Counted from the first letter of the stretch, positions 28,880-59,012 are shown. The stretch is 64,000 nt of DNA from a candidate division CPR3 bacterium 4484_211 (GCA_002084955.1 MZGJ01000004.1:3155-67154); one strand, 5' to 3'. A program made the numbers and translations. The notes: generated from the sequence alone by a model not told the origin.

Positions 28880-28899
28880 GAAGTACCCGGTACTTCATG
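28877..28899. repeat. REP copy A (full palindrome CATGAAGTACC-C-GGTACTTCATG)
   Basis: 11-bp perfect arms. Overlaps the ATG of the 28592..28879 gene and lies 100 nt from tRNA-Val. Confidence 0.8.
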
Positions 28900-28998
28900 T
28901 CGCTCTTGTTGCAACCAAAACCGGGTTGCTGTCTCCTGCGGCCTGCCTCGACTCGGGTTGCTTCTTGAAGAGAGTGTGGGGCGGCTGCCCAATATACC

Positions 28999-29075
28999 TG
29001 GTGAGCCCGGGTGGATTTGAACCACCGACCTCTACGATGTCAACGTAGCACTCTTACCAGCTGAGCTACGGGCTC
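28999..29075 (-). tRNA. tRNA-Val (anticodon GAC), CCA encoded
   Basis: GAGCCCGUAGCUCAGCUGGUAAGAGUGCUACGUUGACAUCGUAGAGGUCGGUGGUUCAAAUCCACCCGGGCUCACCA: 7-bp acceptor, D/anticodon/T arms, GUUCAAAUC T-loop. Confidence 0.85.
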
Positions 29076-31556: not shown

Positions 31557-31579
31557 GCCTCATGAAGTACCGGGTACTG
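31557..31579 (+). repeat. REP copy B (GCCTCATGAAGTACCGGGTACTG); extended identity from 31542; adjacent internal duplication GGGTACTGCTC x2
   Basis: Exact 23-mer; supplies the ATG of the 31562 ORF (MKYRVLLGY...). Confidence 0.8.
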
Positions 31580-32428
31580 CTCGGGTACTGCTCCTGTTGC
31601 ATATTGGACAGCTGTTTGTTATACTTCGCGTTAATGTCAATCCCACAAGTTTCCTCAAGGAATACCAAAAACGAAATTTTGGCTGCTTATCAACAGTTAC
31701 GGGATATGGTAAGCCAGCGGAAGGAGACTCCGGCGGTGTCATTTCGCGGGAAGATTATTGCCCAGGTGGAGAAAATAGAAGCGAGCTTGGCGGCTAAGCA
31801 GGCCGAGGTAGGTGAATTAGAAGAAAGAATTGCACAGTTAAAGCAGGAGTTGCAACTGGGCGAGAGGATGAAGTTGACTCGGGAGCAGTTGGAAAAGTTG
31901 CAGGAAAAGATTGCCCAAGAAGAGCAGCGGTGGCAAAGACAGCGCCGCCAGTTGGAAGAAGAGCTGAAGGATGTGAGGTTGTGGAATGAGAAGCAATGGG
32001 AAAAAGAACTGGGGCAGAAACGGTGGGAATTGGAAATGGAGGAAAAGAAGAGAATGAGGATTCTTGAGGAAAAGGAAAAACTCTTCGGGCAGAAGGCGGC
32101 AGATTATAAGCAGTTAAAAGAGCAGGTAAAGTCTTTTCCTGAGCGGTTAGAGAAAGCGGCTAAAGATGGTATTTCGGAAGGTTTGGCGTCTGCAAGAGAA
32201 GAATTTGAGGTGGAGAAAAAGAGCATGAGGCAGCAGTTTGAATCGGAAAAGCAACTTTTAAATCAACAGATTGAAAATTTAGAAAACCGCCTGCAGGAAG
32301 AGAAGGAGGCAAAGAAGAGACTGGAACAGCAGTTGGCTTTGGCTTCTCAGCAGATTAAGCAACTGGCAGTGGCGGCACTGGAAAATAAAACATCTAAAGT
32401 TCAAGAAACAACTCCCAAGACTGCATAA
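31562..32428 (+). CDS. Hypothetical coiled-coil protein (E/K/Q/L-rich)
   Basis: 288 aa; heptad-like EELKxxLEE repeats throughout, no enzymatic motifs. Bracketed by direct REP copies. Confidence 0.4.
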   Translation: MKYRVLLGYCSCCILDSCLLYFALMSIPQVSSRNTKNEILAAYQQLRDMVSQRKETPAVSFRGKIIAQVEKIEASLAAKQAEVGELEERIAQLKQELQLGERMKLTREQLEKLQEKIAQEEQRWQRQRRQLEEELKDVRLWNEKQWEKELGQKRWELEMEEKKRMRILEEKEKLFGQKAADYKQLKEQVKSFPERLEKAAKDGISEGLASAREEFEVEKKSMRQQFESEKQLLNQQIENLENRLQEEKEAKKRLEQQLALASQQIKQLAVAALENKTSKVQETTPKTA

Positions 32429-32684: not shown

Positions 32685-32707
32685 GCCTCATGAAGTACCG
32701 GGTACTG
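32685..32707 (+). repeat. REP copy C (exact 23-mer); extended identity from 32670 (ATGGCTGATATGAAAGCC...)
   Basis: 37/38 nt identical to 31542..31579. Confidence 0.8.
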
Positions 32708-32728: not shown

Positions 32729-33691
32729 TTAAAGTGGATGAATGTTCTGTTTTGGAGCTATCTCGACTACATAATCCCCTTCCCAGACAGTATTTGTGTC
32801 CGCGTGCATAATCACTACGCCGTTTTCTTTAGCCTTGGTAACTATTTCTTTGCCCAGAGTTGCTGATGGGTAGAGTTTGTAAAGTGGTTGCCCTTTGCTA
32901 AAAGATTCTTCTGGGCTTACCAGATACTTAACAAATCCGCTCACTGGAGCACGGTATATTTTAAGTTTGTCAATATAAAACTGTCTGTTCGCGTTGCTAC
33001 TTTTTCCTTTTTGTGTTGTCCTAATCCTGATCACTTCTAGATAATTCAGTATGTTAAGGATGCCTTCTACAGTGCGATCTATGTTTTGTTGGTCGAATTC
33101 GTCGTGTGATCCGCACTCTATAGCGATTGATTTCTGTTTCTCGATTATTCGAGCGGCTGTAAAGGGCATACCTCCACCCTTTTTAGTTGCTTCATGCATG
33201 TCAAAAATTATTGAGTAACACATGTTTGAGGCTTTAGCGATTTTGAGATATTGTTTTGAGGGAATAATGAGATATGGCCTACTCCTATTTGCGGTATGTA
33301 GATCAATGGAGAATTTGCTATCGGATGCCAGATTTGAGAGCTGTCGTGCTAGCCGCTCGGCACCTGTTCCTGAACTTGATCCGGGAAAGTTGCGATTAAA
33401 GTCTTTTCCGTCATAGAGAGAGAATTTTCCGCTGGTATAGTAGTAAATTTTCTGATTCCAGGAGTAAGGATTGCATATGGGTACAAGCGTTATTCTGCCA
33501 AGTATCTTTGTTTTTTGAAGTTCATGTATTAGTTGGTGAAAGATGAAAAAAGTTGTTTCTCCCCCGTGAATACCCCCTTGGATATATATTGATTGACCTT
33601 TGTTGTCAGGCCCGACAATATAATAAGGGAGAGAAATCTTACCTCCTGTAATAGAGTAGCCAATTTGTAGATTTTGTCTTTTCACTTTCAT
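32729..33691 (-). CDS. Succinylglutamate desuccinylase/aspartoacylase (AstE/AspA) family zinc deacylase-like protein
   Basis: GGIHGGETT (cf. GxHGNE zinc site of the family); 320 aa. Confidence 0.5.
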   Translation of the reverse strand: MKVKRQNLQIGYSITGGKISLPYYIVGPDNKGQSIYIQGGIHGGETTFFIFHQLIHELQKTKILGRITLVPICNPYSWNQKIYYYTSGKFSLYDGKDFNRNFPGSSSGTGAERLARQLSNLASDSKFSIDLHTANRSRPYLIIPSKQYLKIAKASNMCYSIIFDMHEATKKGGGMPFTAARIIEKQKSIAIECGSHDEFDQQNIDRTVEGILNILNYLEVIRIRTTQKGKSSNANRQFYIDKLKIYRAPVSGFVKYLVSPEESFSKGQPLYKLYPSATLGKEIVTKAKENGVVIMHADTNTVWEGDYVVEIAPKQNIHPL

Positions 33692-33782
33692 ATCTAAGAG
33701 TATTTTAGCATGAGTTTAACCTGGAGAGGTTCAAGAGAACTTAAAGTTGGCTTGTCTCTTGAACCTCTCACAGGACCCGTTT

Positions 33783-35306
33783 TTATCCAAACATCACTTT
33801 TCGGGCAGCCGGAATGATTTGTTGCCCGAAAATTGTCAGCTCTTCTTGGCTGGAGTGAAAGATGGCCGGTAATCCCCCCCAGCTGTAGACTTGGGCCGGC
33901 GCCAGCAGACGCGGATCCCCGGCCCGGGTTCTCTTGGTGAAGACCTGGCCGGGCCGGGCGGCCCAGCAGAGGATCTGGCCGGTTTTTTCGTTAGCCGGCA
34001 CTAACCGACCGGCCTCCCATTTCCACCAGCCGTTCATGTTGCCCACAACGGGTAATGGCAGCTCGGCCTCTGGCAGAGGGTGGATATCAAACTGCCATCC
34101 TCCAGCTTCGGCCACGCTTTGGCGATTGTACTCCTCTGGCCGAAGCCAGGAAAAGTCTTCTTCGCCTGAGGCGGCGAGAAGCCAGAGACCGAATGTGGAA
34201 GGCCGTCCTTTCATCAGGGCTCGACGGTCGTGTGAAAACGAAGTTCCCTGGTACCGCGCGTTGATTTCGTGCGGGACTACTCGCTCTCCTTCGAGGTCGA
34301 TGATAAAGTCAATCCCGAAGATCCCGATGTATCCGAATTCTTGGTGTAGGTGTTGGCCTACCCGCACCATCACATTTAGGTACTGAACCTGGATCCTCTC
34401 CGGCCATGGATTTGTCCAGTCATCACCGACGGCGCCCTGGGGTTTGCCGCCGGTGATGTGGCTAATCTGACCCGCGGAAGGTTTGTGAGACAAGGGGTCG
34501 ACGAGCACGACCCCACCGGGCAGGACCACTGCCTGCCCATTAGTTTCGTAGCCCTCGACAAACTCGACGACCCGGTACCACATGCCCGGGCCGGCCTCCC
34601 GGAGCATGTGGACTGCGTCGGACCAAGTGTGGTACACTCCGACGATCCGGGTCCCTGACCCTCCGGCAGAATCGTCGGTTTGTACCACGCACTTCTCTCT
34701 GAAGAGAGATCGAACTTCCTCCCATTCTGGGAGTTGGGGCGTGGTCCCCTCTATAAAATGTGGAGGGTCTACACCTGCTCCCTGAAGAATGGGGGCAAAG
34801 TTCTTTTTGGGCTCGATCAGTTTTGTTACCCTGAAGGGGACATAAACCTGAACGAGCCCCCTCTTTTTGGAGAGGCGGTCCGCTTCAGTCCGGAAGCCAT
34901 CCCAAGCTCCGCGTGTAAACACGGAGCTGTACAGGATGTAGGGGCCTACCAAAACTCCATTAGGGTTGGAGAGCATCCAATCCCACAATAAGGGCAGGTG
35001 GGTCCCCTCCGGGTCGAAGACGAGGTCAGGTGTGGGTTGGCCGGGCTTGTCCAAAGTAACGGATAACCGAGCCCGGCCGCGCCCGATGGTGGTCAGCTCC
35101 AAATTGGGCTCGGGAAGAAGCCCGAAGTTGACCAGGTTGTACAAGATTGGCCGCGTGTGGATCGCGGCTAGGGAGCGACTCCAAAGGGCTTGCTGTAACC
35201 GGGTTGCAAATTGGTCTAGCATCTCTGGCCTCCTTTTTGAAAGATTTAAAGAGCAAAATCGAAGTGAATTAAAAACGGGAAGAAAAGAAATAACAAGAGT
35301 AGGCAA
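33783..35306 (-). CDS. ATP-grasp fold ligase (~60% GC, compositionally foreign)
   Basis: VVQTDDSAGGSGTRIV (ATP-grasp K/GSxGxG-like loop) and C-terminal GIFGIDFIIDLEGERVVPHEINARYQG (Mg/ATP E-x-N). Hand-counted GC of 34381-34440 is 60%, against 32% (33001-33060) and 40% (35521-35580) in the neighbours. Confidence 0.6.
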   Translation of the reverse strand: MPTLVISFLPVFNSLRFCSLNLSKRRPEMLDQFATRLQQALWSRSLAAIHTRPILYNLVNFGLLPEPNLELTTIGRGRARLSVTLDKPGQPTPDLVFDPEGTHLPLLWDWMLSNPNGVLVGPYILYSSVFTRGAWDGFRTEADRLSKKRGLVQVYVPFRVTKLIEPKKNFAPILQGAGVDPPHFIEGTTPQLPEWEEVRSLFREKCVVQTDDSAGGSGTRIVGVYHTWSDAVHMLREAGPGMWYRVVEFVEGYETNGQAVVLPGGVVLVDPLSHKPSAGQISHITGGKPQGAVGDDWTNPWPERIQVQYLNVMVRVGQHLHQEFGYIGIFGIDFIIDLEGERVVPHEINARYQGTSFSHDRRALMKGRPSTFGLWLLAASGEEDFSWLRPEEYNRQSVAEAGGWQFDIHPLPEAELPLPVVGNMNGWWKWEAGRLVPANEKTGQILCWAARPGQVFTKRTRAGDPRLLAPAQVYSWGGLPAIFHSSQEELTIFGQQIIPAARKVMFG

Positions 35307-35362
35307 GGGTAAGATGAGCGCTAGGCGGTTATTTCCTTGACTTCCCGTTTTTAAGAGAATTC

Positions 35363-36253
35363 TTATGGACTTTTATAGACTTGCTTGACCACCCAGGAGA
35401 ATCCTCTTGGCCCGATTTGCGGTACAGAGATAATTCTGGGAAATTTTGACAATAAGTTTTTACCATTTTGATCTTGGACATTGTATCCCTTGTCAACTGC
35501 ATGAAGCATTTCTAAATCATTCTCACCATCACCGACGCCAATAGTTTTTATGCGCGTCTTGTGTGTTTTTACAAAGATTTGTGTAAATTTTTTAACAGCT
35601 TTTCCTTTATCGCAACCCTTTAATACATGATAGAATAATCCTCCTTTTAATACGGTATGGCCCCTAGCTTGCAATTCAGATATGACTTCATTTTTGATTT
35701 CCCCTTTTATATCCACATTCTTTTTGAATTGAAAGGCAACATCAAAATACTTTTGGGGTGAACATCCCTCTCGTATTTGTTCTACTGTCCAATGAGGAAA
35801 GTACGGTTGCAATGAGATTATTTCCTCGCTAGATTGGGGCATATCAGGGGAAATTATAAAATAGTTGGGCAATCCATATTTTTGTGAGATTTTATTTTCT
35901 ATATTGTCTAGGTCTCGTAATATTTTATTTCTTTGGACTCCTAAGCAAATGAGTAACCCTTCTGGAATCTCGATGTGTCGATGGGGTACCTGCTTAAATT
36001 TATTTTGGTATTTTTGGGGTATAACGATGCCGCCACCGTTTTCGCAGATAAAAGGCACGTTAAGTTTCATTCTTTGTAAAAGTGTGTAAATGGCACCGGC
36101 CGGTTTGCTAGAGACTGGGACTATTAGGTCGCTATGCCTTTTTATTGTCGTTACAGCCTTCTCACTTTTATGAAAGTTCATTTTTTGATCAACAAGCGTC
36201 CCATCGATATCTGTGAAAAAAAGTTTTTTGGTGGTATTATTTTGGAAATCCAT
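35363..36253 (-). CDS. HAD-IIB family sugar-phosphate phosphatase (Cof / mannosyl-3-phosphoglycerate phosphatase-like)
   Basis: Motif I FFTDIDGTLVD; motif IV GVGDGENDLEM. Start taken as the internal Met (MDFQ...), since the track ORF overlaps the upstream gene by 125 nt. Confidence 0.6.
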   Translation of the reverse strand: MDFQNNTTKKLFFTDIDGTLVDQKMNFHKSEKAVTTIKRHSDLIVPVSSKPAGAIYTLLQRMKLNVPFICENGGGIVIPQKYQNKFKQVPHRHIEIPEGLLICLGVQRNKILRDLDNIENKISQKYGLPNYFIISPDMPQSSEEIISLQPYFPHWTVEQIREGCSPQKYFDVAFQFKKNVDIKGEIKNEVISELQARGHTVLKGGLFYHVLKGCDKGKAVKKFTQIFVKTHKTRIKTIGVGDGENDLEMLHAVDKGYNVQDQNGKNLLSKFPRIISVPQIGPRGFSWVVKQVYKSP

Positions 36254-37352
36254 TTTTTTCAGGTAAGTTGAAATATGCGGAAAGACCAAGTCTGCGAATA
36301 CGTTGAATAACTGGTTCATAAAATGGGGCCGCTCTCTTAGCGGCGTTAGAAATGTATTCATCAGTAGCTGGGTGTCTGAGGCATTCCCATGGCTTGAAGT
36401 GAAACTTTTCTTTTCTTGGGTCTAATCTTTGATGCTGTGTAAATATTGGATAACGTCGCTTAATCAAGTCTTTTACCTTCTGGTTCCGTTTGGTGTCTTT
36501 GGTTTTGTATAGTGTTTGTTGAATTTTCCAAAAAATGTCACTCTTTTCAACTTTATAGAAGTCGTTAAGCATTGCAATCGCACAGTGGCGATCGGTTTTG
36601 ATATAAGCATTCTTATTTTCGTCAGTAATGCTAATAGGGCTTTCCTCGCTGGCAGTAGCCAGCCAATAACCGCGACCGTTTTGGTAGGCTAGTGAAAAGC
36701 CGCATCTAGCTAATTTAAGACTGAAAGTAGTTGCGTCACCCCATTGGGGCACGCCGGGATTTCTTCCGACGTAGTCCTCAATAGTTTTTAATGTTGCTAC
36801 TGCCATTCCGTTTACTGATGAGGACAAGGTAATGTCACAATATTGGGGAAATCTTGTGGCTTCTAGTTCTACTCGCGGCTTGAAGGGCTTTCCGTTGTTA
36901 AGGGATGGAAGCCCGAGTAATCCTAATTTATATTTTATTAAGTTTTCTATCATATATTTTGTAAAGCCATATTGTATTATGGCCACGTCCGCATCTCTGT
37001 GTATCAAGATATCTCCTGTTGCCAAGTCTTTCAGTTGGGTTCTAGCCTCTGGTAGGTTAAATTTATCTGTATAGTTTTCTACAAATTTGACATTCTGCCA
37101 TTTGTCAGAGACGCCTTCTAAGAAGGAGAGAGAGTTGGCAATCCTTTCTCCAATAACCTTGGCTTTCTTGGCAAATCCCCTATATTGGCTACAGAAGAAA
37201 ATACACTCAATAAGATCGGACGGAAAGTCTTCCTGGAGGAATTCCGCTAGCCGCTTCCACCACCGATGGTGGTCAAATGTGGTGGGTATTAGCCAGGAAA
37301 CTAGCGGTCTGGGTTTTTCTGTCTTGTAAGATTTATTTGCTTCAATTGTCAT
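36237..37352 (-). CDS. Putative GT-A fold glycosyltransferase
   Basis: PLVSWLIPTTFDHHRW (cf. the GT2 N-terminal xSVVIPTYN strand) and a DxD-like ILIHRDADVAII; 371 aa. Immediately upstream of the HAD phosphatase, with overlapping stop/start. Confidence 0.35.
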   Translation of the reverse strand: MTIEANKSYKTEKPRPLVSWLIPTTFDHHRWWKRLAEFLQEDFPSDLIECIFFCSQYRGFAKKAKVIGERIANSLSFLEGVSDKWQNVKFVENYTDKFNLPEARTQLKDLATGDILIHRDADVAIIQYGFTKYMIENLIKYKLGLLGLPSLNNGKPFKPRVELEATRFPQYCDITLSSSVNGMAVATLKTIEDYVGRNPGVPQWGDATTFSLKLARCGFSLAYQNGRGYWLATASEESPISITDENKNAYIKTDRHCAIAMLNDFYKVEKSDIFWKIQQTLYKTKDTKRNQKVKDLIKRRYPIFTQHQRLDPRKEKFHFKPWECLRHPATDEYISNAAKRAAPFYEPVIQRIRRLGLSAYFNLPEKNGFPK

Positions 37353-37992
37353 AGATAATCTTTTTAAAGTCGTACCAATTGCAGTTGCGTTCCGGGTTTT
37401 GCTGCTTCCCGTTGTTTCTTTTGGGCATTAGGCAGTTTAGGAAGGAGGAGTAAGGATTGGTCTAATTATTTCACCAAAATACTAGGAATCGGAAATTTTC
37501 ACTCCTCTCCCCTACCCTGCCCCGAACCGAATCTGTGAAAGAACAGGTCGGTTCGGGTTTGAGCCCCCGAGGAGAGCGGGGATGAAGAAGCCCAAGAATT
37601 GGGAAAAATTTGCCTCCTCGGGAACCGGGCGCTATCCCTTAGTTGGATTCGGAAAAATGAAAAATCTCCCGTTCTCCAACTAGACCCTGAACTGAACTTG
37701 TTCTAGTTTAGGGCCAAAATATTAAGTTGTAAAAAAACTTTAATTTCTGTTTTTTCCGTTATCTACATTAGCTCTATGCCGACTCGCTCCGCCAAAGGCG
37801 GGGTCTGTTATCGTGGCTAAAATCTAAAATATTGAATTGCAAAAAGGTTTGGTTTTCATTACTAAACTCTCTCTATTGTTCTTTGTAGCTTTCCGAAACT
37901 TACATCTGTCTCTATTAAAGCCGCGATGGACTAACTCAACCAGTAAAAAGTTTGCCAGTCGGATCTCTTTTCAACAGTATCGCCCAAAAAAA

Positions 37993-38030
37993 CAGCCTCC
38001 CCTTTTTGGGAGGCTTCCTGCTTTCTTTTC
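37993..38030. terminator. Bidirectional-looking intrinsic terminator hairpin AGCCTCCC-cttttt-GGGAGGCT
   Basis: 8-bp GC-rich stem. The minus strand is followed by UUUUUUU, the plus strand by a U-rich CUUUCUUUUCUAUUCUUUUUUU. Lies ~250 nt downstream of the 38273..38683 gene. Confidence 0.4.
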
Positions 38031-38272
38031 TATTCTTTTTTTATTTTTTAGTCTTTATTTTAAATCAATAAGAAACCTCCCCTTACCATTAAAAGCTCCA
38101 TACAAGGAGCATGAAAATAATGGTAAAGAGGATGGCAAAACACGCCACCGTCCTCTTTTGGGAGGAGATTAAATACTTATCTGTCAATTCTAGAGTGTAA
38201 ACTTCCGCAGGCATTTTCCTTATTAAGAATATGTGAACTTATATACCATAGCCTGTCAACTCCTGTCAATAA

Positions 38273-41076: not shown

Positions 41077-41291
41077 TATCCTTCACCCCCTTCTTAATGA
41101 TCCCGATATCGCATCGGGAGAACTAGAGCCTGCCTGCTGCCATGACGGCGACACAACTTCGCTAAGCTCTAAAGGCTGAGACGGCTCAGTGGGCATACTA
41201 AAAGCGATCTAAGATAACTTTAATTTAATCCTATTCTAGCTTCTTATTTTTGTCAATGGCAATTGGAGGACGTGTTAAGTGCTGGAGCGGC

Positions 41292-41367
41292 GGAGGGGTC
41301 TCGAACCCCCGACCTTTTGCTTGGCAAGCAAATGTTCTGCCAACTGAACTACCGCCGCAAGCTACTA
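41292..41367 (-). tRNA. tRNA-Gly (anticodon GCC), CCA encoded
   Basis: GCGGCGGUAGUUCAGUUGGCAGAACAUUUGCUUGCCAAGCAAAAGGUCGGGGGUUCGAGACCCCUCCGCCGCUCCA. Confidence 0.85.
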
Positions 41368-41395
41368 ATTTATTATACCAGACTTGGTGGGTTCG

Positions 41396-41472
41396 GTAGG
41401 GCTTGAACCTACGACCTTCTGGGTGTAAACCAGACGCTCTAGCCAGCTGAGCTACGAACCCTATAACATTGT
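41396..41472 (-). tRNA. tRNA-Val (anticodon UAC), CCA encoded
   Basis: GGGUUCGUAGCUCAGCUGGCUAGAGCGUCUGGUUUACACCCAGAAGGUCGUAGGUUCAAGCCCUACCGAACCCACCA. Confidence 0.85.
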
Positions 41473-41530
41473 TGCTGATTGGCAAGAATTGTACCAAAAA
41501 ATTGGCTTGTGGTAAAATAAATCGGTAAGT

Positions 41531-41602
41531 GCTCCGTTAGCTCAGTGGTAGAGCAGTGGTCTCTTAAACCATTGGTCGTAGGTTCGAATCCTACACGGAG
41601 CA
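41531..41602 (+). tRNA. tRNA-Lys (anticodon CUU), 3' CCA not encoded
   Basis: GCUCCGUUAGCUCAGUGGUAGAGCAGUGGUCUCUUAAACCAUUGGUCGUAGGUUCGAAUCCUACACGGAGCA followed by CUUCCA. Confidence 0.8.
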
Positions 41603-41610
41603 CTTCCAAA

Positions 41611-41634
41611 CAGTACCCGGTACTTCATGAGGCC
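41611..41634 (-). repeat. REP copy D (reverse orientation), 5' flank of the RAYT gene
   Basis: CAGTACCCGGTACTTCATGAGGCC is the exact reverse complement of the REP consensus. 9 nt after tRNA-Lys, 20 nt before the RAYT start. Confidence 0.8.
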
Positions 41635-41654: not shown

Positions 41655-42422
41655 ATGGCGCGACAGTTGGGTCTTTACACGGATAATTTTTATCATATTT
41701 TTAACAGGGGAGCGTTAAAACGGGAGATTTTTTTGGATGATGGGGATTATTTTAGGTGGGTTAAGTTGATGTACTGGTGTTTACGCTACAATTATTCCCT
41801 TAGTAAATTTCTAAGTCGAGTTGATTTCATGCGCAGGACTGGCGAGGATTCTGGTCAGGTGGAGAAGGAAATCGCCAAATTCTATTCATTACCTCAGAGA
41901 CCTGTTGAGATGATTGCTTGGGTTTTAATGCCCAATCACTTTCACCTTGTGCTAAAGCAGCTTGTGGAGGCAGGCATTTCTAGTTTTATGCATCGCCTTA
42001 CCAGTTCGTATTCTCATTATTTTAATCGCAAATATGAAGGGACAGGGACTCTTTTCCAGGGTCGGTTTCGGGCCGTTCTTGTTGATACGGAGGAACAGTT
42101 CTTGCACCTTTGTCGATACGTTCATATTAATCCGTTATCGGCCGGGCTAGCAAGCAGGCAGACTTTGCCAGACTACTCTTGGTCTTCTTTCCGGTATTAT
42201 ATGATGGGAAAAGATGACTTGGTAACTACGAGAGAATATCTTGAGAGTTATTTTCCTTCGATACGTTTGTTAGGGGAATTTACCTTGGCGGGTTCTGTTA
42301 ATCAAGAGGCCTATTTAATTGAAGGATTAACAATTGATGACGATTTTGGATGGTATGAAGAGAAACGCGCTTGTGAGAAAATACGGCGCGACAATTTGAT
42401 AGAGGAAGTGTTTAAGGCCTAG
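41655..42422 (+). CDS. REP-associated tyrosine transposase (RAYT; IS200/IS605 TnpA-like HuH Y1 transposase)
   Basis: YHIFNRGALKREIFLDD (N-terminal motif), HuH MPNHFHLVL, catalytic-Tyr region SYSHYFNRKYEGTGTLFQGRF, YVHINP. 255 aa, longer than IS200 TnpA, as RAYTs are. Confidence 0.7.
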   Translation: MARQLGLYTDNFYHIFNRGALKREIFLDDGDYFRWVKLMYWCLRYNYSLSKFLSRVDFMRRTGEDSGQVEKEIAKFYSLPQRPVEMIAWVLMPNHFHLVLKQLVEAGISSFMHRLTSSYSHYFNRKYEGTGTLFQGRFRAVLVDTEEQFLHLCRYVHINPLSAGLASRQTLPDYSWSSFRYYMMGKDDLVTTREYLESYFPSIRLLGEFTLAGSVNQEAYLIEGLTIDDDFGWYEEKRACEKIRRDNLIEEVFKA

Positions 42423-56744: not shown

Positions 56745-59012
56745 CTATCTACTTTGTACCATACTTGCTTCCGCTTTGGCAACTAGTTGTTTAACTTTAT
56801 AAAATGCGTCCGGGTTGACCGAGATAGAAGAGATACCCCATTCGACTAATTTTTGCACAAACTCTGGATAGACGCTGGGCGCTTGGCCGCAGATGGAACA
56901 CAAAATGCGGTGTTTGCGGCATTCTTTAATTACCTTTTCAATTACCTCCATAACTGCAGGATTGGTTTCATTCAGGGTGCTTCCTAAGACGGGGTTGTCT
57001 CGGTCGGCGGCCAAGATTAGCTGGGTTAGATCGTTGGATCCAATGGAGACTCCGTCAATGCCGACGCCGATAAAACGTTCCAACAAGATGGCGCTGGCCG
57101 GCGTTTCCACCATGATAAAGAGTTTAAATGACGGAGAGCGGTAGAGGTTATTGGCGGCCAGTACTTTTTTTATTTCAATTAATTCCTCAACTGTTCTTAA
57201 GAATGGAATCATCAGCCAGAGATTTTTGTAGTATTGTCTGACTTTTTTTATCGCCTCGAGCTCCAGTTGAAAGACCTGCGGGTCTTTAATGTAGCGCAGG
57301 GCGCCGCGCATCCCCAGCATGGGGTTGGCTTCTTCTTCCTCGTATTTATCTCCGCCTTTTAGATTACGGTATTCATTAGTTTTAAAATCAGTTGTTCGGT
57401 AAATTACCGGCCGGGGTTTAAAGGACTTGGTGAAAATACGGAGTCCGTTTTCCAGTTCTTTTATAAATTGATCTTGTTTTCCCTGTTTAATTAAGTATTT
57501 TGGATGCACGCCGATGCCGGCAATCATAAACTCGGCTCTAAGCAGGCCGACTCCGTCCACCGGCAGTTTGGCAATTTCTTCAGCGCGTTCCGGCTCGGCA
57601 AGGTTCACATAAATTTTGGTTGCTGTCTTACTGGCGGCAATTTGCTCTTTATTTGTGGCAACTTGTTGATTTCCGCTTATTTGCTGCGCTAAATCTCCTG
57701 TGTAAACTACGCCGTTTTGCCCATCTATGGTGACCGTTTCTCCGGAGGCTAGAGTGTTGGTGGCGACTTCGGTTCCAACAATGCAGGGAATTCCCAATTC
57801 ACGGGAGATAATCGCCGCGTGACAGGTGGTTCCTCCCTCGTCGGTGATAATGGCCGCCGCTTTTTTCATGGCGGGAACGAAATCGGGAGTGGTCATGGTG
57901 GTGACCAGAATTTCTCCTTTACGTATTTTACTGATTTCCTTGGCGCTTTTAAGTTTTTTAACCTTGCCGCTGACCACGCCCGGGCTGGCGCCCAGACCTT
58001 TGAGGATAATTTTTTCATCAAACACCCCAAAATCAGTACCCGGTACTTCATGAGGCTTTTGTGTAAGGGTTGTCACCGGTCTGGTCTGGACAATATAAAT
58101 TTTGTTTTTCCAAATTGCCCATTCAATATCTTGAGGAAATTGGTAGTGTTTTTCCAGTGCCTTGCCGATTTTAGCCAATTCCTTAATTAGTTGATCACTG
58201 ATTTTTTGCTTCTTGCGCCAGTCCCGCGAAACGGCAACTTCACCTTTTTGGGTAATCATTTTGTCTTGAGGGACAATCTTTTTGGTTACGATCTCTAAAC
58301 TGTCTTTGTTTACCTGGTAGTGATCGGGGGTAATGCTGCCGGAAACAATGCCCTCCCCCAGCCCGTAAATGGCCTCAATGGTGATGATCTTGGGATTGTT
58401 GGAGATGGGGTCTACGGTGAATTCTATGCCGGACATTTGCGACTGGATCATTTTCTGTACGGGTACGGCTACTCCGACTTTAAAATGGTCAAATTTCTTT
58501 TGCTCGCGATAGTATATGGACCGGGCGGTAAATAAAGACGCCCAGCATTTTTTGACCGCCTCTGCCACCTGGTTGGGCCCGCTAATGTTAAGGAAGGTTT
58601 CCTGCTGGCCGGCAAAAGAAGCTTCGGGCAAGTCTTCGGCAGTGGCCGAAGAACGCACGGCTACTTTGGTTCTAGCACCGAGCTTTTTATAGGCCTGCGT
58701 AATTTCCTTTTCTATCTTGGGGGGTATCTGGGATTGGATGATAAGTAACTTGATGTTGGCGCTCGCTTTTTGAAGTGAATTGGTGTTTTCTACTTCTATG
58801 GGATTGAGGATTTCTTTTAGCTTTTGGGTGAGCTTATTTTCTTTTAAAAAATAGAAATAGGCGTTGGCGGTAACACAGAATCCTTCCGGAACGGGAAACC
58901 CGGCCTGGGTCATTTCTCCTAAATTGGCCGCTTTTCCACCGACTTCGTTAAGATCCTTTTTGTTGATTTCCTTAAACCACTTGACAAACTGCATGACAGG
59001 CGCAATCTTCAA
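56745..59012 (-). CDS. ppsA: Phosphoenolpyruvate synthase (pyruvate, water dikinase)
   Basis: N-terminal PPDK_N (VGGKAANLGEM), phospho-His domain GGTTCHAAIISRELGIPCIVG, C-terminal PEP-utilising TIM barrel; 755 aa. Contains an in-frame REP copy. Confidence 0.8.
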   Translation of the reverse strand: MKIAPVMQFVKWFKEINKKDLNEVGGKAANLGEMTQAGFPVPEGFCVTANAYFYFLKENKLTQKLKEILNPIEVENTNSLQKASANIKLLIIQSQIPPKIEKEITQAYKKLGARTKVAVRSSATAEDLPEASFAGQQETFLNISGPNQVAEAVKKCWASLFTARSIYYREQKKFDHFKVGVAVPVQKMIQSQMSGIEFTVDPISNNPKIITIEAIYGLGEGIVSGSITPDHYQVNKDSLEIVTKKIVPQDKMITQKGEVAVSRDWRKKQKISDQLIKELAKIGKALEKHYQFPQDIEWAIWKNKIYIVQTRPVTTLTQKPHEVPGTDFGVFDEKIILKGLGASPGVVSGKVKKLKSAKEISKIRKGEILVTTMTTPDFVPAMKKAAAIITDEGGTTCHAAIISRELGIPCIVGTEVATNTLASGETVTIDGQNGVVYTGDLAQQISGNQQVATNKEQIAASKTATKIYVNLAEPERAEEIAKLPVDGVGLLRAEFMIAGIGVHPKYLIKQGKQDQFIKELENGLRIFTKSFKPRPVIYRTTDFKTNEYRNLKGGDKYEEEEANPMLGMRGALRYIKDPQVFQLELEAIKKVRQYYKNLWLMIPFLRTVEELIEIKKVLAANNLYRSPSFKLFIMVETPASAILLERFIGVGIDGVSIGSNDLTQLILAADRDNPVLGSTLNETNPAVMEVIEKVIKECRKHRILCSICGQAPSVYPEFVQKLVEWGISSISVNPDAFYKVKQLVAKAEASMVQSR
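58034..58056 (-). repeat. REP copy F inside ppsA coding sequence (exact 23-mer, reverse orientation)
   Basis: CAGTACCCGGTACTTCATGAGGC on the plus strand. Read in the ppsA frame it encodes ...KPHEVPGTD... in the linker between the ATP-grasp-like N-domain and the phospho-His domain. Confidence 0.8.

What the first reader, a model, noticed from the sequence alone, without database searches (positions are those of the whole stretch)
32729..37352. Candidate small-molecule/peptide modification cluster: AstE/AspA-like deacylase, ATP-grasp ligase, HAD-IIB phosphatase, GT-A glycosyltransferase (all minus strand)
Four consecutive co-oriented genes with short gaps or overlaps. The ATP-grasp ligase pairs with an AstE/AspA-family zinc hydrolase. 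As far as I recall, RimK-like ATP-grasp enzymes and AstE/AspA-family proteins are recurrent neighbours in other bacteria. A ligase plus its deacylase suggests reversible amino-acid or peptide tailing. The GT-A glycosyltransferase has its stop overlapping the start of a HAD-IIB phosphatase (DIDGTL, GDGxND). That echoes the two-step synthase/phosphatase logic of glycosyl-glycerate compatible-solute pathways (GpgS/GpgP, MpgS/MpgP). Either pairing would be notable in a minimal genome.
Basis: inference. Interest (0 to 1): 0.55.

Follow-up and report, generated by a model that had tools for sequence, protein, structure and literature searches.

The report
Conserved four-enzyme cassette in CPR bacteria
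Four neighbouring genes in this tiny-genome bacterium (a sugar-transferase, a sugar-phosphate phosphatase, an ATP-driven ligase and a zinc amide-hydrolase) travel together in several related uncultured bacteria, so they probably build and recycle an unknown small sugar-containing compound. The ligase gene has a puzzlingly different base composition from everything around it.

Summary
Four minus-strand genes lie at 32729-37352.

- **AstE/AspA-type zinc deacylase:** Pfam PF24827, 3e-27.
- **ATP-grasp ligase:** 479 aa. Profile hits are sub-threshold, but the fold and the E-x-N-x-R motif are confirmed.
- **HAD-IIB phosphatase:** its closest relatives are mannosyl-3-phosphoglycerate phosphatases.
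- **371-aa protein:** no Pfam or NCBIfam hit. An AlphaFold model (pLDDT 89) is a GT-A glycosyltransferase with an invariant D-x-D.

The four families recur as one cassette in four lineages, in two gene orders. The ligase-deacylase pair recurs in seven lineages with congruent trees. All named sources are CPR/Patescibacteria. Elsewhere the GT-A family sits next to PGM-like histidine phosphatases. That is the other known class of glycosyl-3-phosphoglycerate phosphatase.

Best reading: a cytoplasmic small-molecule pathway. A glycoside is made through a phosphorylated intermediate, and an amide bond is ligated and hydrolysed. The product is unknown.

This recurs in two other lineages. It is not an assembly chimera or an overlapping gene, and it remains unexplained.

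This is a new variant of known enzyme logic and is moderately interesting.

The parts
36237..37352 (-). 371-aa divergent GT-A-fold glycosyltransferase ('X'). It belongs to a rare family with no Pfam or NCBIfam model. Invariant D120-x-D122, N-terminal VSWLIPT strand, C-terminal FKPWECLSH motif.
   Evidence: No family hit. 20 homologues found and aligned. AF2 model pLDDT 89.3. Foldseek against PDB: ppGalNAc-T (GT27) 7e-11 and TarS/TarP (GT2) 1e-9. Viral GT2-like matches 4e-9. No TM segment.
35363..36253 (-). 296-aa HAD-IIB phosphatase of the mannosyl-3-phosphoglycerate-phosphatase (MPGP) type. Its start overlaps the stop of X by 17 nt.
   Evidence: Pfam Hydrolase_3 1.2e-14. NCBIfam TIGR01486 HAD-SF-IIB-MPGP 4.4e-35, at 121 bits below the 164.75 cut-off, and TIGR02461 5.5e-33. 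The three best PDB matches are MpgP or putative MpgP: 3ztw 3e-18, 1wzc, 1xvi. Motifs DIDGT and GDGEND.
33783..35222 (-). 479-aa ATP-grasp carboxylate-amine ligase of a very rare clade. It has an extra C-terminal region of about 110 aa whose fold is unknown. This CDS is the GC island: GC 0.582, GC3 0.665.
   Evidence: Only 3 clusters found in the word-indexed search of 5.8e9 proteins. The exhaustive HMM search gave 8 relatives at E<=1e-30 and 478 at E<=1e-3. 45 of 60 relatives match NF005096/PRK06524. Foldseek: biotin carboxylase, Ddl, L-amino-acid ligase, GARS and BesA at about 5e-10, from a low-confidence model with pLDDT 57. Profile against PDB reaches 2e-9. K139, D305, E319, N321 and R323 are conserved. 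Composition.
35229..35234 (-). AGGAGG Shine-Dalgarno sequence, 6 nt upstream of the ligase ATG.
   Evidence: Read directly from the sequence. L001 has AGGAGG in the same place.
33724..33769 (-). Perfect 15-bp stem with a 16-nt loop immediately after the ligase stop codon. There is no U-tract. It could be an attenuator or an mRNA 3' stabiliser between ligase and deacylase.
   Evidence: RNA fold -33.3 kcal/mol, z -5.8, 0 of 200 shuffles as stable. L001 has a hairpin in the same place with a different sequence (-31.9 kcal/mol, z -5.7) and a U-rich tail.
32729..33691 (-). 320-aa AstE/AspA-family zinc amidohydrolase (deacylase) with an intact metal and catalytic set (H42, E45, H132, E192).
   Evidence: PF24827 3.4e-27, 95.7 bits against a cut-off of 25. 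Closest named family is DoeB, N-acetyl-DABA deacetylase, 3.7e-11 over the full length. PDB 3fmc 3e-21 and 3lwu 1e-20, with H-x-x-E, DLHT and E aligned.
37994..38015 (-). Intrinsic-terminator-like hairpin with a U-run that closes the upstream transcription unit. The cassette's promoter should therefore lie in 37353-37993.
   Evidence: Terminator scan: 8-bp stem, 6 GC pairs, GTTTTTTT tail. Sequence.

Best explanation
The locus is a conserved, horizontally mobile four-enzyme cassette of CPR/Patescibacteria. All four proteins are soluble and presumably cytoplasmic, and they most likely act on a small molecule.

**Module 1 (inferred).** The divergent GT-A enzyme transfers a sugar from an NDP-sugar onto a phosphorylated acceptor, of which 3-phosphoglycerate is the model. 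The MPGP-type HAD-IIB phosphatase then removes the phosphate. This is the two-step synthase/phosphatase route used for glycosyl-glycerate-type solutes.

**Module 2 (inferred).** The ATP-grasp enzyme activates a carboxylate as an acyl-phosphate and joins it to an amine, most likely an amino acid. The AstE/AspA-type zinc hydrolase cleaves that kind of N-acyl-amino-acid bond, either for turnover and recycling or as a deprotection step.

**Link between the modules.** All four genes are inherited together, so the two modules probably act on the same metabolite. One example would be amidation of the free carboxylate of a glycosyl-glycerate-like product.

**Shown here:** the folds, the catalytic motifs, and the conserved linkage.

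**Inferred:** donor, acceptor, product, direction of flux and physiological role.
For: **Enzyme identities.**
- GT-A fold with an invariant D-x-D.
- An MPGP-like HAD. The three best PDB matches are MpgP or putative MpgP.
- ATP-grasp fold with K, D and E-x-N-x-R.
- AstE/AspA with intact Zn and catalytic residues. The closest characterised relatives act on small N-acyl amino acids: DoeB, AstE and AspA.
- None of the four has a TM-like segment.

**Linkage of the four genes.**
- The four families are adjacent in the window and L001 in the order X-HAD-ligase-deacylase.
- They are adjacent in L002-L004 and L017 in the order X-ligase-deacylase-HAD, with overlapping stops and starts.
- All four proteins co-diverge: window against L001 is 52/40/60/57% identity, and window against L002 is 47/34/38/44%.
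- Synonymous sites are saturated, so purifying selection maintains the genes.

**Ligase-deacylase core.**
- The two genes are also adjacent in Moranbacteria (L018), L020 and Daviesbacteria (L025). Their trees are congruent.

**A phosphatase is a recurrent partner of both other families.**
- The ligase has an IMPase neighbour in Levybacteria (L019) and a ligase-IMPase fusion, P0037.
- The GT sits next to PGM-like histidine phosphatases in L015, L021 and L022/23.
- HAD-like and PGM-like phosphatases are the two known non-homologous glycosyl-3-phosphoglycerate phosphatases (PMC3240985).
- APH-type and ROK sugar-kinase-like genes and a HIT gene next to X elsewhere fit sugar-phosphate or NDP-sugar metabolism.
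Against: - No substrate or product is known for any member of the GT or ligase family.
- X gives no hit to the GpgS/MpgS models. Its best structural matches are polypeptide GalNAc-transferases and teichoic-acid GTs, so the acceptor could be a polymer or a protein.
- X also occurs without any phosphatase (L009, L016) and fused to TIR domains.
- The ligase-deacylase pair occurs without X or HAD (L018, L020, L025), so the two modules need not share a substrate.
- A very stable hairpin separates ligase and deacylase. The 140-nt and 91-nt gaps leave co-transcription unproven.
- The HAD score is below NCBI's MPGP cut-off.
- The ligase structural model has low confidence (pLDDT 57).
Confidence: 0.5

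Rival explanations
1. Reversible protein or peptide modification. The ATP-grasp enzyme adds amino-acid tails to a protein, as RimK and tubulin-tyrosine-ligase-like enzymes do. The AstE/M14-related hydrolase trims them, as cytosolic carboxypeptidases do. The GT-A enzyme O-glycosylates the same target.
For: - The best structural matches of X are polypeptide GalNAc-transferases.
- AstE/AspA shows weak similarity to M14 carboxypeptidases (PF00246, E 0.011).
- The best single-sequence PDB match of the ligase profile is an 'ATP-grasp peptide ligase', 8ynd.
- An M20 peptidase lies nearby in L017 and L019.
Against: - The ligase gives no hit to RimK models. Its named relatives are small-molecule ligases and carboxylases.
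- No conserved small ORF or candidate substrate gene accompanies the cassette. In L002 and L017 the genes abut with no room for one.
- The characterised relatives of the deacylase cleave small N-acyl amino acids.
- The recurrent sugar-phosphate-type phosphatase partner has no role in this model.
Confidence: 0.15
2. Cell-envelope remodelling. The GT-A enzyme decorates a teichoic-acid-like or other glycopolymer precursor. The ATP-grasp enzyme acts like Ddl or the pseudomurein peptide ligases on a stem peptide. The AstE/M14-like enzyme acts like the murein-peptide amidase MpaA. The phosphatase acts on a phosphorylated precursor.
For: - TarS and TarP are among the top structural matches of X.
- In L013, X sits at the end of a GT4/GT2 cluster.
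- Ddl is among the top structural matches of the ligase. 5 of 60 relatives touch an archaeal Ddl-like model.
Against: - All four proteins lack TM or signal-like hydrophobic segments.
- No flippase, polyprenyl-phosphate transferase or Mur genes lie in any of the cassettes.
- The HAD enzyme is specifically MPGP-like.
Confidence: 0.13
3. A conflict (anti-phage or inter-microbial) system. X and its partners make or destroy a nucleotide- or NAD-derived signal or toxin. The cassette moves horizontally, and its ligase gene is a recombination hot spot.
For: - One clade of X is fused to N-terminal TIR domains.
- X in L015, L013 and L021 lies among Fic, NYN, PLD, NUDIX, Smr, an N6-methylase, a group-II-intron RT and a patatin.
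- The cassette is sporadic in its distribution and compositionally mosaic.
- A dispersed repeat linked to a Y1 transposase abuts the cassette.
Against: - No PADLOC model hits any of the four proteins.
- No relative was found on viral contigs or plasmids.
- The cassette has no obvious effector such as a nuclease, a pore-former or an NADase.
- The ligase-deacylase pair in Daviesbacteria lies among housekeeping genes.
Confidence: 0.1
4. The ATP-grasp gene is foreign DNA joined to the locus by misassembly or contamination, and the neighbourhood is fortuitous.
For: - The ligase CDS has GC 0.582 against 0.441 +/- 0.026 for the other 47 ORFs (z 5.4).
- Its codon usage looks foreign: CGG is 48% of Arg codons and ATC is 74% of Ile codons.
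Against: - Two other assemblies contain identical junctions (L006 and L007). They are 100% identical to the window, so they represent the same population.
- More decisively, a homologous ligase sits between the same neighbours in L001, L002-4 and L017, from other samples.
- Its tree matches that of the deacylase.
- The composition shift coincides with the start and stop codons. The intergenic DNA on both sides is AT-rich.
Confidence: 0.02

Closest known systems
Two-step glycosyl-glycerate pathways: MpgS/MpgP (mannosylglycerate) and GpgS/GpgP (glucosylglycerate)
   Same: - A GT-A-fold, D-x-D glycosyltransferase gene abuts a phosphatase gene of the MPGP HAD-IIB type.
- In other genomes the same GT family is paired instead with PGM-like histidine phosphatases. 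This mirrors the HAD-like and PGM-like GpgP dichotomy (PMC3240985).
   Different: - X gives no hit to any curated MpgS/GpgS (or any other) model. Its top structural neighbours are GT27 and GT2 enzymes.
- The HAD enzyme scores below the MPGP family cut-off.
- The known pathways have no ATP-grasp ligase or AstE-type hydrolase.
ATP-grasp L-amino-acid ligases and related small-molecule ligases (LdmS, BesA, PylC, BL00235/3vot), and the uncharacterised PRK06524 'biotin carboxylase-like' family
   Same: - Three-domain ATP-grasp architecture, conserved K, D and E-x-N-x-R, and a length of 470-520 aa.
- The predicted chemistry is ATP-dependent carboxylate-amine ligation.
   Different: - All curated models score far below their thresholds: the best is PRK06524 at 23.7 bits against 684.
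- The C-terminal ~110 aa got very low model confidence (pLDDT mostly <50), so its fold could not be assigned.
- The substrates are unknown.
- It is not RimK-like.
AstE/AspA-family deacylases: succinylglutamate desuccinylase, aspartoacylase, DoeB N-acetyl-DABA deacetylase; Shewanella structural-genomics proteins 3fmc and 3lwu
   Same: - Catalytic domain PF24827 above threshold.
- H-x-x-E...H...E set intact.
- Full-length alignment, including the C-terminal beta domain.
   Different: - It is not an equivalog of AstE, AspA or DoeB. Scores are 13-43 bits against cut-offs of 170-403.
- It is obligately paired with a novel ATP-grasp ligase rather than with arginine or ectoine catabolic genes.
Ligase/hydrolase pairs that write and erase an amide (RimK and its partners; TTL/TTLL with M14 carboxypeptidases; NAAG synthetase and aspartoacylase). 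Cited from my own knowledge, not tested here.
   Same: An ATP-grasp enzyme is genetically tied to a zinc hydrolase of the carboxypeptidase-related superfamily. This suggests synthesis and hydrolysis of the same bond.
   Different: - The ligase is not a member of the RimK or TTL families.
- No protein substrate is evident.
- GT and sugar-phosphatase partners are absent from those systems.

Membership tests
GT-A-fold glycosyltransferases | Rossmann-like alpha/beta/alpha GT-A fold | tested here: met
   AF2 model pLDDT 89.3, pTM 0.89. Foldseek probability 1.0, E 7e-11 to 5e-9, to GT27 and GT2 crystal structures. 300 PDB chains match at E<=1e-3.
GT-A-fold glycosyltransferases | D-x-D metal/NDP-sugar-binding motif after a beta-strand | tested here: met
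   D120 and D122 are invariant, and R119 and A121 are at least 90% conserved, in 20 homologues (IHRDADxA).
GT-A-fold glycosyltransferases | Match to a curated sequence family (Pfam Glycos_transf_2 or similar; CAZy family) | tested here: not met
   No Pfam or NCBIfam hit at E<=1. Only a marginal profile hit to PDB 6p61 (E 0.026). The CAZy family could not be assigned with these tools.
Glycosyl-3-phosphoglycerate synthases (MpgS GT55/GT78, GpgS GT81) | Sequence membership in the curated MpgS/GpgS models | tested here: not met
   The NCBIfam scan returned nothing for X at E<=1. MpgS and GpgS structures are not among the top 50 Foldseek matches.
Glycosyl-3-phosphoglycerate synthases (MpgS GT55/GT78, GpgS GT81) | Genetic pairing with a glycosyl-3-phosphoglycerate phosphatase | tested here: inconclusive
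   X abuts an MPGP-like HAD in four lineages and PGM-like histidine phosphatases in three others. The phosphatase substrates are untested.
Glycosyl-3-phosphoglycerate synthases (MpgS GT55/GT78, GpgS GT81) | Transfer of hexose from an NDP-sugar to 3-phosphoglycerate | not testable with these tools
   Needs an enzyme assay.
HAD-IIB, MPGP subfamily (TIGR01486/TIGR02461) | HAD motifs I-IV (DxDGT, S/T, K, GDxxND) with a IIB cap | tested here: met
   DIDGT 15-19, VSSK 47-50 and GDGEND 241-246. Pfam Hydrolase_3 at 55 bits against 20.9. TIGR01484 HAD-SF-IIB at 60.9 bits against 41.8.
HAD-IIB, MPGP subfamily (TIGR01486/TIGR02461) | Score above the curated MPGP cut-off | tested here: not met
   TIGR01486 scores 121.2 bits against 164.75. 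TIGR02461 scores 115 bits against 244.35. MPGP models are still by far the best hits, and the three best PDB matches are MpgP or putative MpgP.
ATP-grasp superfamily | ATP-grasp fold with a pre-ATP-grasp N-domain | tested here: met
   Foldseek E 5e-10, probability 1.0, over about 370-380 columns to biotin carboxylase, Ddl, an L-amino-acid ligase and GARS. The model has low overall confidence (pLDDT 57; core 70-90). A 60-sequence profile hits PDB biotin carboxylases at 2e-9.
ATP-grasp superfamily | Conserved ATP/Mg2+ residues (Lys, Asp, E-x-N, catalytic Arg) | tested here: met
   K139, D305, E319, N321 and R323 are at least 90% conserved across 60 relatives.
ATP-grasp superfamily | Pfam ATP-grasp model above the gathering score | tested here: not met
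   The best is ATPgrasp_YheCD at 17.5 bits against 26.8. The others are 15.7-16.1 bits, and all hits are C-terminal only.
RimK family (ribosomal protein S6 glutamate ligase-like) | Sequence membership in the RimK models | tested here: not met
   There is no RimK hit among the NCBIfam results at E<=1. The best is PRK06524 at 1.2e-5. The family-wide scan is dominated by PRK06524, in 45 of 60 members.
AstE/AspA (succinylglutamate desuccinylase/aspartoacylase) family | Catalytic domain PF24827 above the gathering score | tested here: met
   95.7 bits against 25, E 3.4e-27, covering profile positions 2-191 of 192.
AstE/AspA (succinylglutamate desuccinylase/aspartoacylase) family | Zn ligands H-x-x-E and H, plus the catalytic Glu | tested here: met
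   H42 and E45, H132 (DLHT) and E192 (IECG) align with the same residues of 3fmc and 3lwu.
AstE/AspA (succinylglutamate desuccinylase/aspartoacylase) family | Equivalog of AstE, AspA or DoeB | tested here: not met
   DoeB 42.6 bits against 402.7. AstE 27.4 bits against 305.65. AspA 13 bits against 180.
Known anti-phage defence systems (PADLOC-DB 2.0) | Any component matches a defence-system model | tested here: not met
   No hits for any of the four proteins at E<=1.

The most novel reading that the evidence does not exclude
The cassette encodes a previously undescribed, CPR-restricted pathway for a glycosylated and amide-capped small solute. An example would be a glycosyl-glycerate whose carboxylate is ligated to an amino acid or ammonia. 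The pathway is built on two enzyme families that have no curated model. In addition, its ligase gene is kept GC-rich by a gene-specific process acting in situ. This would be recombination-driven biased gene conversion or selection on the nucleotide sequence, not recent import. The process arose at least twice: once in the window/L001 clade and once in L020.
Probability: 0.2. Interest if true: 0.75.

Novelty: new variant of a known kind. Interest (0 to 1): 0.55.

Why it matters
**Metabolism of CPR bacteria.** CPR/Patescibacteria have very small genomes with very little biosynthesis. A four-enzyme, ATP-consuming cassette that is retained and exchanged among several CPR phyla therefore points to a metabolite that matters to them. 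It could be a stress solute, a storage compound or a compound traded with a host.

**Uncharacterised enzyme families.** Two of the four enzymes belong to families that current annotation calls 'hypothetical'. One is a GT-A family invisible to Pfam and NCBIfam. The other is an ATP-grasp clade with about five close sequences among billions.

**Testable assignment.** The phosphatase-partner pattern gives a concrete hypothesis for the GT: its acceptor is phosphorylated, and probably resembles phosphoglycerate.

**Composition puzzle.** The gene-specific GC island is unusually clean. One gene differs from its operon partners, the pattern recurs in relatives, and synonymous sites are saturated. This makes it a good case for asking what can hold a single gene's base composition away from its genome.

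Tried and rejected
**Rejected hypotheses.**
- **Assembly chimera or contamination for the ligase.** Rejected. The junctions are identical in two other assemblies (same population). Synteny is conserved in other samples. The trees are congruent.
- **A gene overlapping the ligase in an alternative frame (sense or antisense), as a cause of the GC island.** Rejected. The longest alternative-frame open stretches in the window, L001 and L020 fall within the distribution of synonymous-codon shuffles; the fraction of shuffles at least as long is 0.15-0.98.
- **Codon adaptation of a highly expressed gene.** Rejected. The translation genes in the window (L20, IF3, trigger factor, aaRS) have GC3 of 0.38-0.51.
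- **Recent xenologous replacement from outside the clade.** Not supported. The ligase and deacylase trees agree. No GC-rich donor-like sequence appeared in the exhaustive search of 1.84e9 representatives. An unsampled close donor cannot be excluded.

**Searches that found nothing useful.**
- PADLOC: nothing.
- Plasmid collection, for both X and the ligase: nothing.
- Viral contigs: nothing.
- GTDB genomes scanned for X: nothing. Scanned for the ligase: only two loci.
- Rfam on the 920-nt upstream non-coding stretch: only sub-threshold chance hits.
- Literature searches on ATP-grasp/AstE neighbourhoods, COG3608 and mannosylglyceramide biosynthesis: nothing usable.

**Unresolved or unavailable.**
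- Monophyly of the cassette-borne X proteins is not resolved: 2 of 100 bootstraps.

Full report
**Observation**

- The window comes from candidate division CPR3 bacterium 4484_211. The NCBI tags are B5M47_00875 for the deacylase, B5M47_00880 for the ligase and B5M47_00885 for the phosphatase.
- The ligase most likely starts at ATG 35222, giving 479 aa. AGGAGG lies 6 nt upstream, and the public protein P0001 is identical.
- The phosphatase most likely starts at ATG 36253, giving 296 aa. Independent gene callers choose this start, and it matches the N-termini of homologues. It overlaps the stop of the 371-aa gene by 17 nt.
- The other gaps are 140 nt (phosphatase to ligase) and 91 nt (ligase to deacylase).

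**What each gene is**

*Deacylase (32729-33691).*
- It is a clear AstE/AspA-family zinc amidohydrolase: PF24827 at 95.7 bits against a cut-off of 25.
- H42, E45, H132 and E192 align with the metal and catalytic residues of PDB 3fmc and 3lwu.
- The nearest named enzyme is DoeB, but the score is far below equivalog level.

*Phosphatase (35363-36253).*
- It is a HAD-IIB enzyme with DIDGT and GDGEND motifs.
- Its best models are the mannosyl-3-phosphoglycerate phosphatase family (TIGR01486, 4.4e-35). At 121 bits this is below the 164.75 cut-off.
- Its three best PDB relatives are MpgP or putative MpgP.

*Ligase (33783-35222).*
- It has only sub-threshold, C-terminal ATP-grasp hits in Pfam.
- A profile of 60 relatives reaches biotin carboxylases in the PDB at 2e-9.
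- The AlphaFold model is poor overall (pLDDT 57). Even so, Foldseek matches it to biotin carboxylase, Ddl, an L-amino-acid ligase, GAR synthetase and BesA at about 5e-10 over about 370-380 columns.
- K139, D305 and E319-x-N321-x-R323 are conserved across the family.
- It is not RimK-like. The only curated model that many relatives touch is the uncharacterised PRK06524 'biotin carboxylase' family, in 45 of 60.

*The 371-aa protein, 'X' (36237-37352).*
- It hits nothing in Pfam, NCBIfam or PADLOC.
- Its 20 homologues share a VSWLIPT strand, an NxxxSRN helix and an invariant D-x-D.
- An AlphaFold model with pLDDT 89 is a GT-A glycosyltransferase. Its matches are GT27 ppGalNAc-T at 7e-11 and GT2 TarS/TarP at 1e-9, and GT2-like viral proteins.

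None of the four proteins has a TM-like segment.

**One cassette, not two pairs**

The ligase family is extremely rare. The word-indexed search of 5.8e9 proteins found three clusters. The exhaustive HMM search of 1.84e9 representatives found eight relatives at E<=1e-30.

Every close relative that could be placed on a contig sits with the same three partners.
- L001: X-HAD-ligase-(deacylase, cut by the contig end).
- L002-L004 and L017: X-ligase-deacylase-HAD, with overlapping or abutting genes.

The four proteins co-diverge. Window against L001 is 52/40/60/57% identity. Window against L002 is 47/34/38/44%. Four-fold degenerate sites are saturated. The linkage has therefore survived long divergence and a change of gene order.

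More distant ligases (E 1e-32 to 1e-49) are next to an AstE/AspA gene in Moranbacteria L018, in L020 and in Daviesbacteria L025. The ligase and deacylase trees are congruent: ((window,L001),(L002,L017)),(L025,(L018,L020)).

In Levybacteria L019 the ligase is followed by an IMPase-family phosphatase and an M20 peptidase. One relative, P0037, is a ligase-IMPase fusion.

Every source that carries a name is CPR/Patescibacteria.

**X in other contexts**

X falls into three clades.
- One clade carries N-terminal TIR domains.
- In L021, TIR-X is followed 3 nt later by a PGM-like histidine phosphatase.
- In L015 and L022/23, a second conserved module has the order histidine phosphatase, 180-aa protein, APH-like kinase, X.
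- In L013, X follows an APH-like kinase and a ROK sugar kinase at the end of a GT cluster.
- In L009 and L016, X stands alone.

A phosphatase is therefore adjacent in 7 of 10 contexts. It comes from exactly the two superfamilies known to supply non-homologous glycosyl-3-phosphoglycerate phosphatases, the HAD-like and the PGM-like histidine phosphatases (PMC3240985). This is the strongest indirect support for a synthase/phosphatase mechanism with a phosphorylated, phosphoglycerate-like acceptor. It is an inference, not a demonstration.

**The GC island**

*What is seen.*
- The ligase CDS has GC 0.582 and GC3 0.665.
- The other 47 ORFs of the window have GC 0.441 +/- 0.026 and GC3 0.457 +/- 0.049, so z is 5.4 and 4.2.
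- The shift begins and ends at the start and stop codons.
- The three partner genes lie at the low end, with GC3 of 0.35-0.40.
- Codon use is foreign-looking: CGG is 48% of Arg, ATC is 74% of Ile and Lys is 2.9% of residues.

*It recurs.*
- The same gene-specific excess is present in L001 (GC3 0.58 against 0.22-0.30) and in the distant L020 (0.54 against 0.32-0.42).
- It is weak in L017. It is absent in L002, L018, L019 and L025.

*What it is not.*
- It is not a chimera.
- It is not an overlapping gene.
- It is not codon adaptation.
- Import from outside the clade is not supported.

It remains unexplained. The candidates are a gene-specific recombination or biased-gene-conversion hot spot, selection on the mRNA, or replacement from an unsampled close GC-rich relative.

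**Transcription**

- A terminator-like hairpin at 38015-37994 closes the upstream unit. The cassette promoter should therefore lie in the 640 nt before X.
- X and the HAD gene overlap and are surely co-translated as a unit.
- Directly after the ligase stop there is a perfect 15-bp hairpin (-33 kcal/mol, z -5.8) without a U-tract.
- L001 has a hairpin of different sequence but equal stability in the same place, with a U-rich tail.
- Whether the deacylase is read through, attenuated or separately transcribed cannot be decided here.

**Mechanism and rivals**

*Best reading (confidence about 0.5).* This is a cytoplasmic small-molecule pathway.
- X glycosylates a phosphorylated acceptor.
- The MPGP-like HAD enzyme dephosphorylates the product.
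- The ATP-grasp enzyme ligates a carboxylate to an amine.
- The AstE-type hydrolase cleaves that N-acyl bond.
- The specific idea that the ligase amidates the carboxylate of a glycosyl-glycerate-like product is speculation.

*Rivals.*
- Reversible protein tailing plus O-glycosylation, 0.15. It is favoured by the ppGalNAc-T-like fold of X and the M14 relationship. It is disfavoured by the non-RimK ligase, the lack of any substrate gene and the sugar-phosphatase partner.
- Envelope remodelling, 0.13.
- A conflict system, 0.10. It is favoured by the TIR fusions and the island-like contexts of X. It is disfavoured by the absence of PADLOC, viral or plasmid hits and by the housekeeping context of the pair in Daviesbacteria.
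- Misassembly, 0.02.

**Comparison and novelty**

Each enzyme belongs to a known superfamily, and the synthase/phosphatase and ligase/hydrolase logics are both known. Four things are new.
- The fixed combination of the four enzymes.
- Two families without curated models, X and the ligase clade.
- The restriction to CPR.
- The ligase-specific GC island.

I rate it a new variant of a known kind, with interest 0.55. The functional reading is plausible but unproven, and the RimK and GpgS/MpgS family labels do not hold at the sequence level.

Noticed in passing
window 33783-35222 (also L001 2896-4368 and L020 1239-2645): The ATP-grasp CDS alone is a GC island: GC 0.58 against 0.44, GC3 0.66 against 0.46. 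The boundaries fall exactly at the start and stop codons. Its three operon partners are among the most AT-rich genes of the window. The same gene-specific excess recurs in two other lineages despite saturated synonymous sites.
   Followed up: yes
window 31557-31579 (+), 32685-32707 (+), 41611-41633 (-), 58034-58056 (-), 28881-28903 (-, 3 mismatches): A dispersed repeat, GCCTCATGAAGTACCGGGTACTG, with the palindromic core AGTACC-G-GGTACT. None is expected by chance. One copy lies 22 nt from the deacylase stop codon. One lies between tRNA-Lys and the IS200/IS605-type Y1 transposase ORF (41655-42422). Two 38-nt copies bracket the 288-aa coiled-coil ORF 31562-32428. It may be a REP/PATE-like element tied to the transposase.
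   Followed up: partly
P0016, P0018 (L016 8001-9506), P0019 (L021 809-2485): One clade of the GT-A family X carries an N-terminal TIR domain (PF13676/PF01582). In L021 the fusion is followed 3 nt later by a PGM-like histidine phosphatase. A group-II-intron reverse transcriptase and a patatin lie nearby. What a TIR domain does on a glycosyltransferase is unexplained.
   Followed up: partly
L015 5608-9080 and L022/L023 155-3525: A second conserved module around X has the order PGM-like histidine phosphatase, 180-aa protein without any family, APH-like kinase, X. In L022 a HIT-family gene follows.
   Followed up: partly
window 37353-38272: A 920-nt stretch without a convincing ORF lies upstream of the cassette, which is unusually long for a compact genome. 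It contains a strong terminator (38015-37994, minus strand) and a GC-rich, moderately structured piece around 37500-37640 (z -2.6). Rfam gave only sub-threshold chance hits.
   Followed up: partly
window 33724-33769 and L001 4390-4421: Very stable hairpins (about -32 kcal/mol, z about -5.7) lie directly after the ligase stop codon in both lineages. Their sequences are unrelated. The position is conserved but the sequence is not.
   Followed up: yes
P0037 (759 aa) and L019 7001-9360: Distant relatives of the ligase are fused to, or followed by, an inositol-monophosphatase/HisN-like phosphatase. In L019 an M20 peptidase gene lies just beyond the phosphatase gene, on the opposite strand, and in L017 an M20 peptidase gene lies near the cassette.
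   Followed up: partly
window 36237-37352 against the NCBI record: The 371-aa GT-A protein is on record from JGI, ENA and Logan gene calls but not from NCBI. NCBI calls the phosphatase with a 332-aa start that would overlap X by 125 nt. The shorter 296-aa start fits the homologues better.
   Followed up: partly
window 41283-41603 and 28999-29075: A tRNA cluster (Gly-GCC, Val-TAC, Lys-CTT) and tRNA-Val-GAC bracket the roughly 12-kb stretch that holds the cassette and several ORFs with no family. Together with the adjacent transposase, this is compatible with a genomic island.
   Followed up: no
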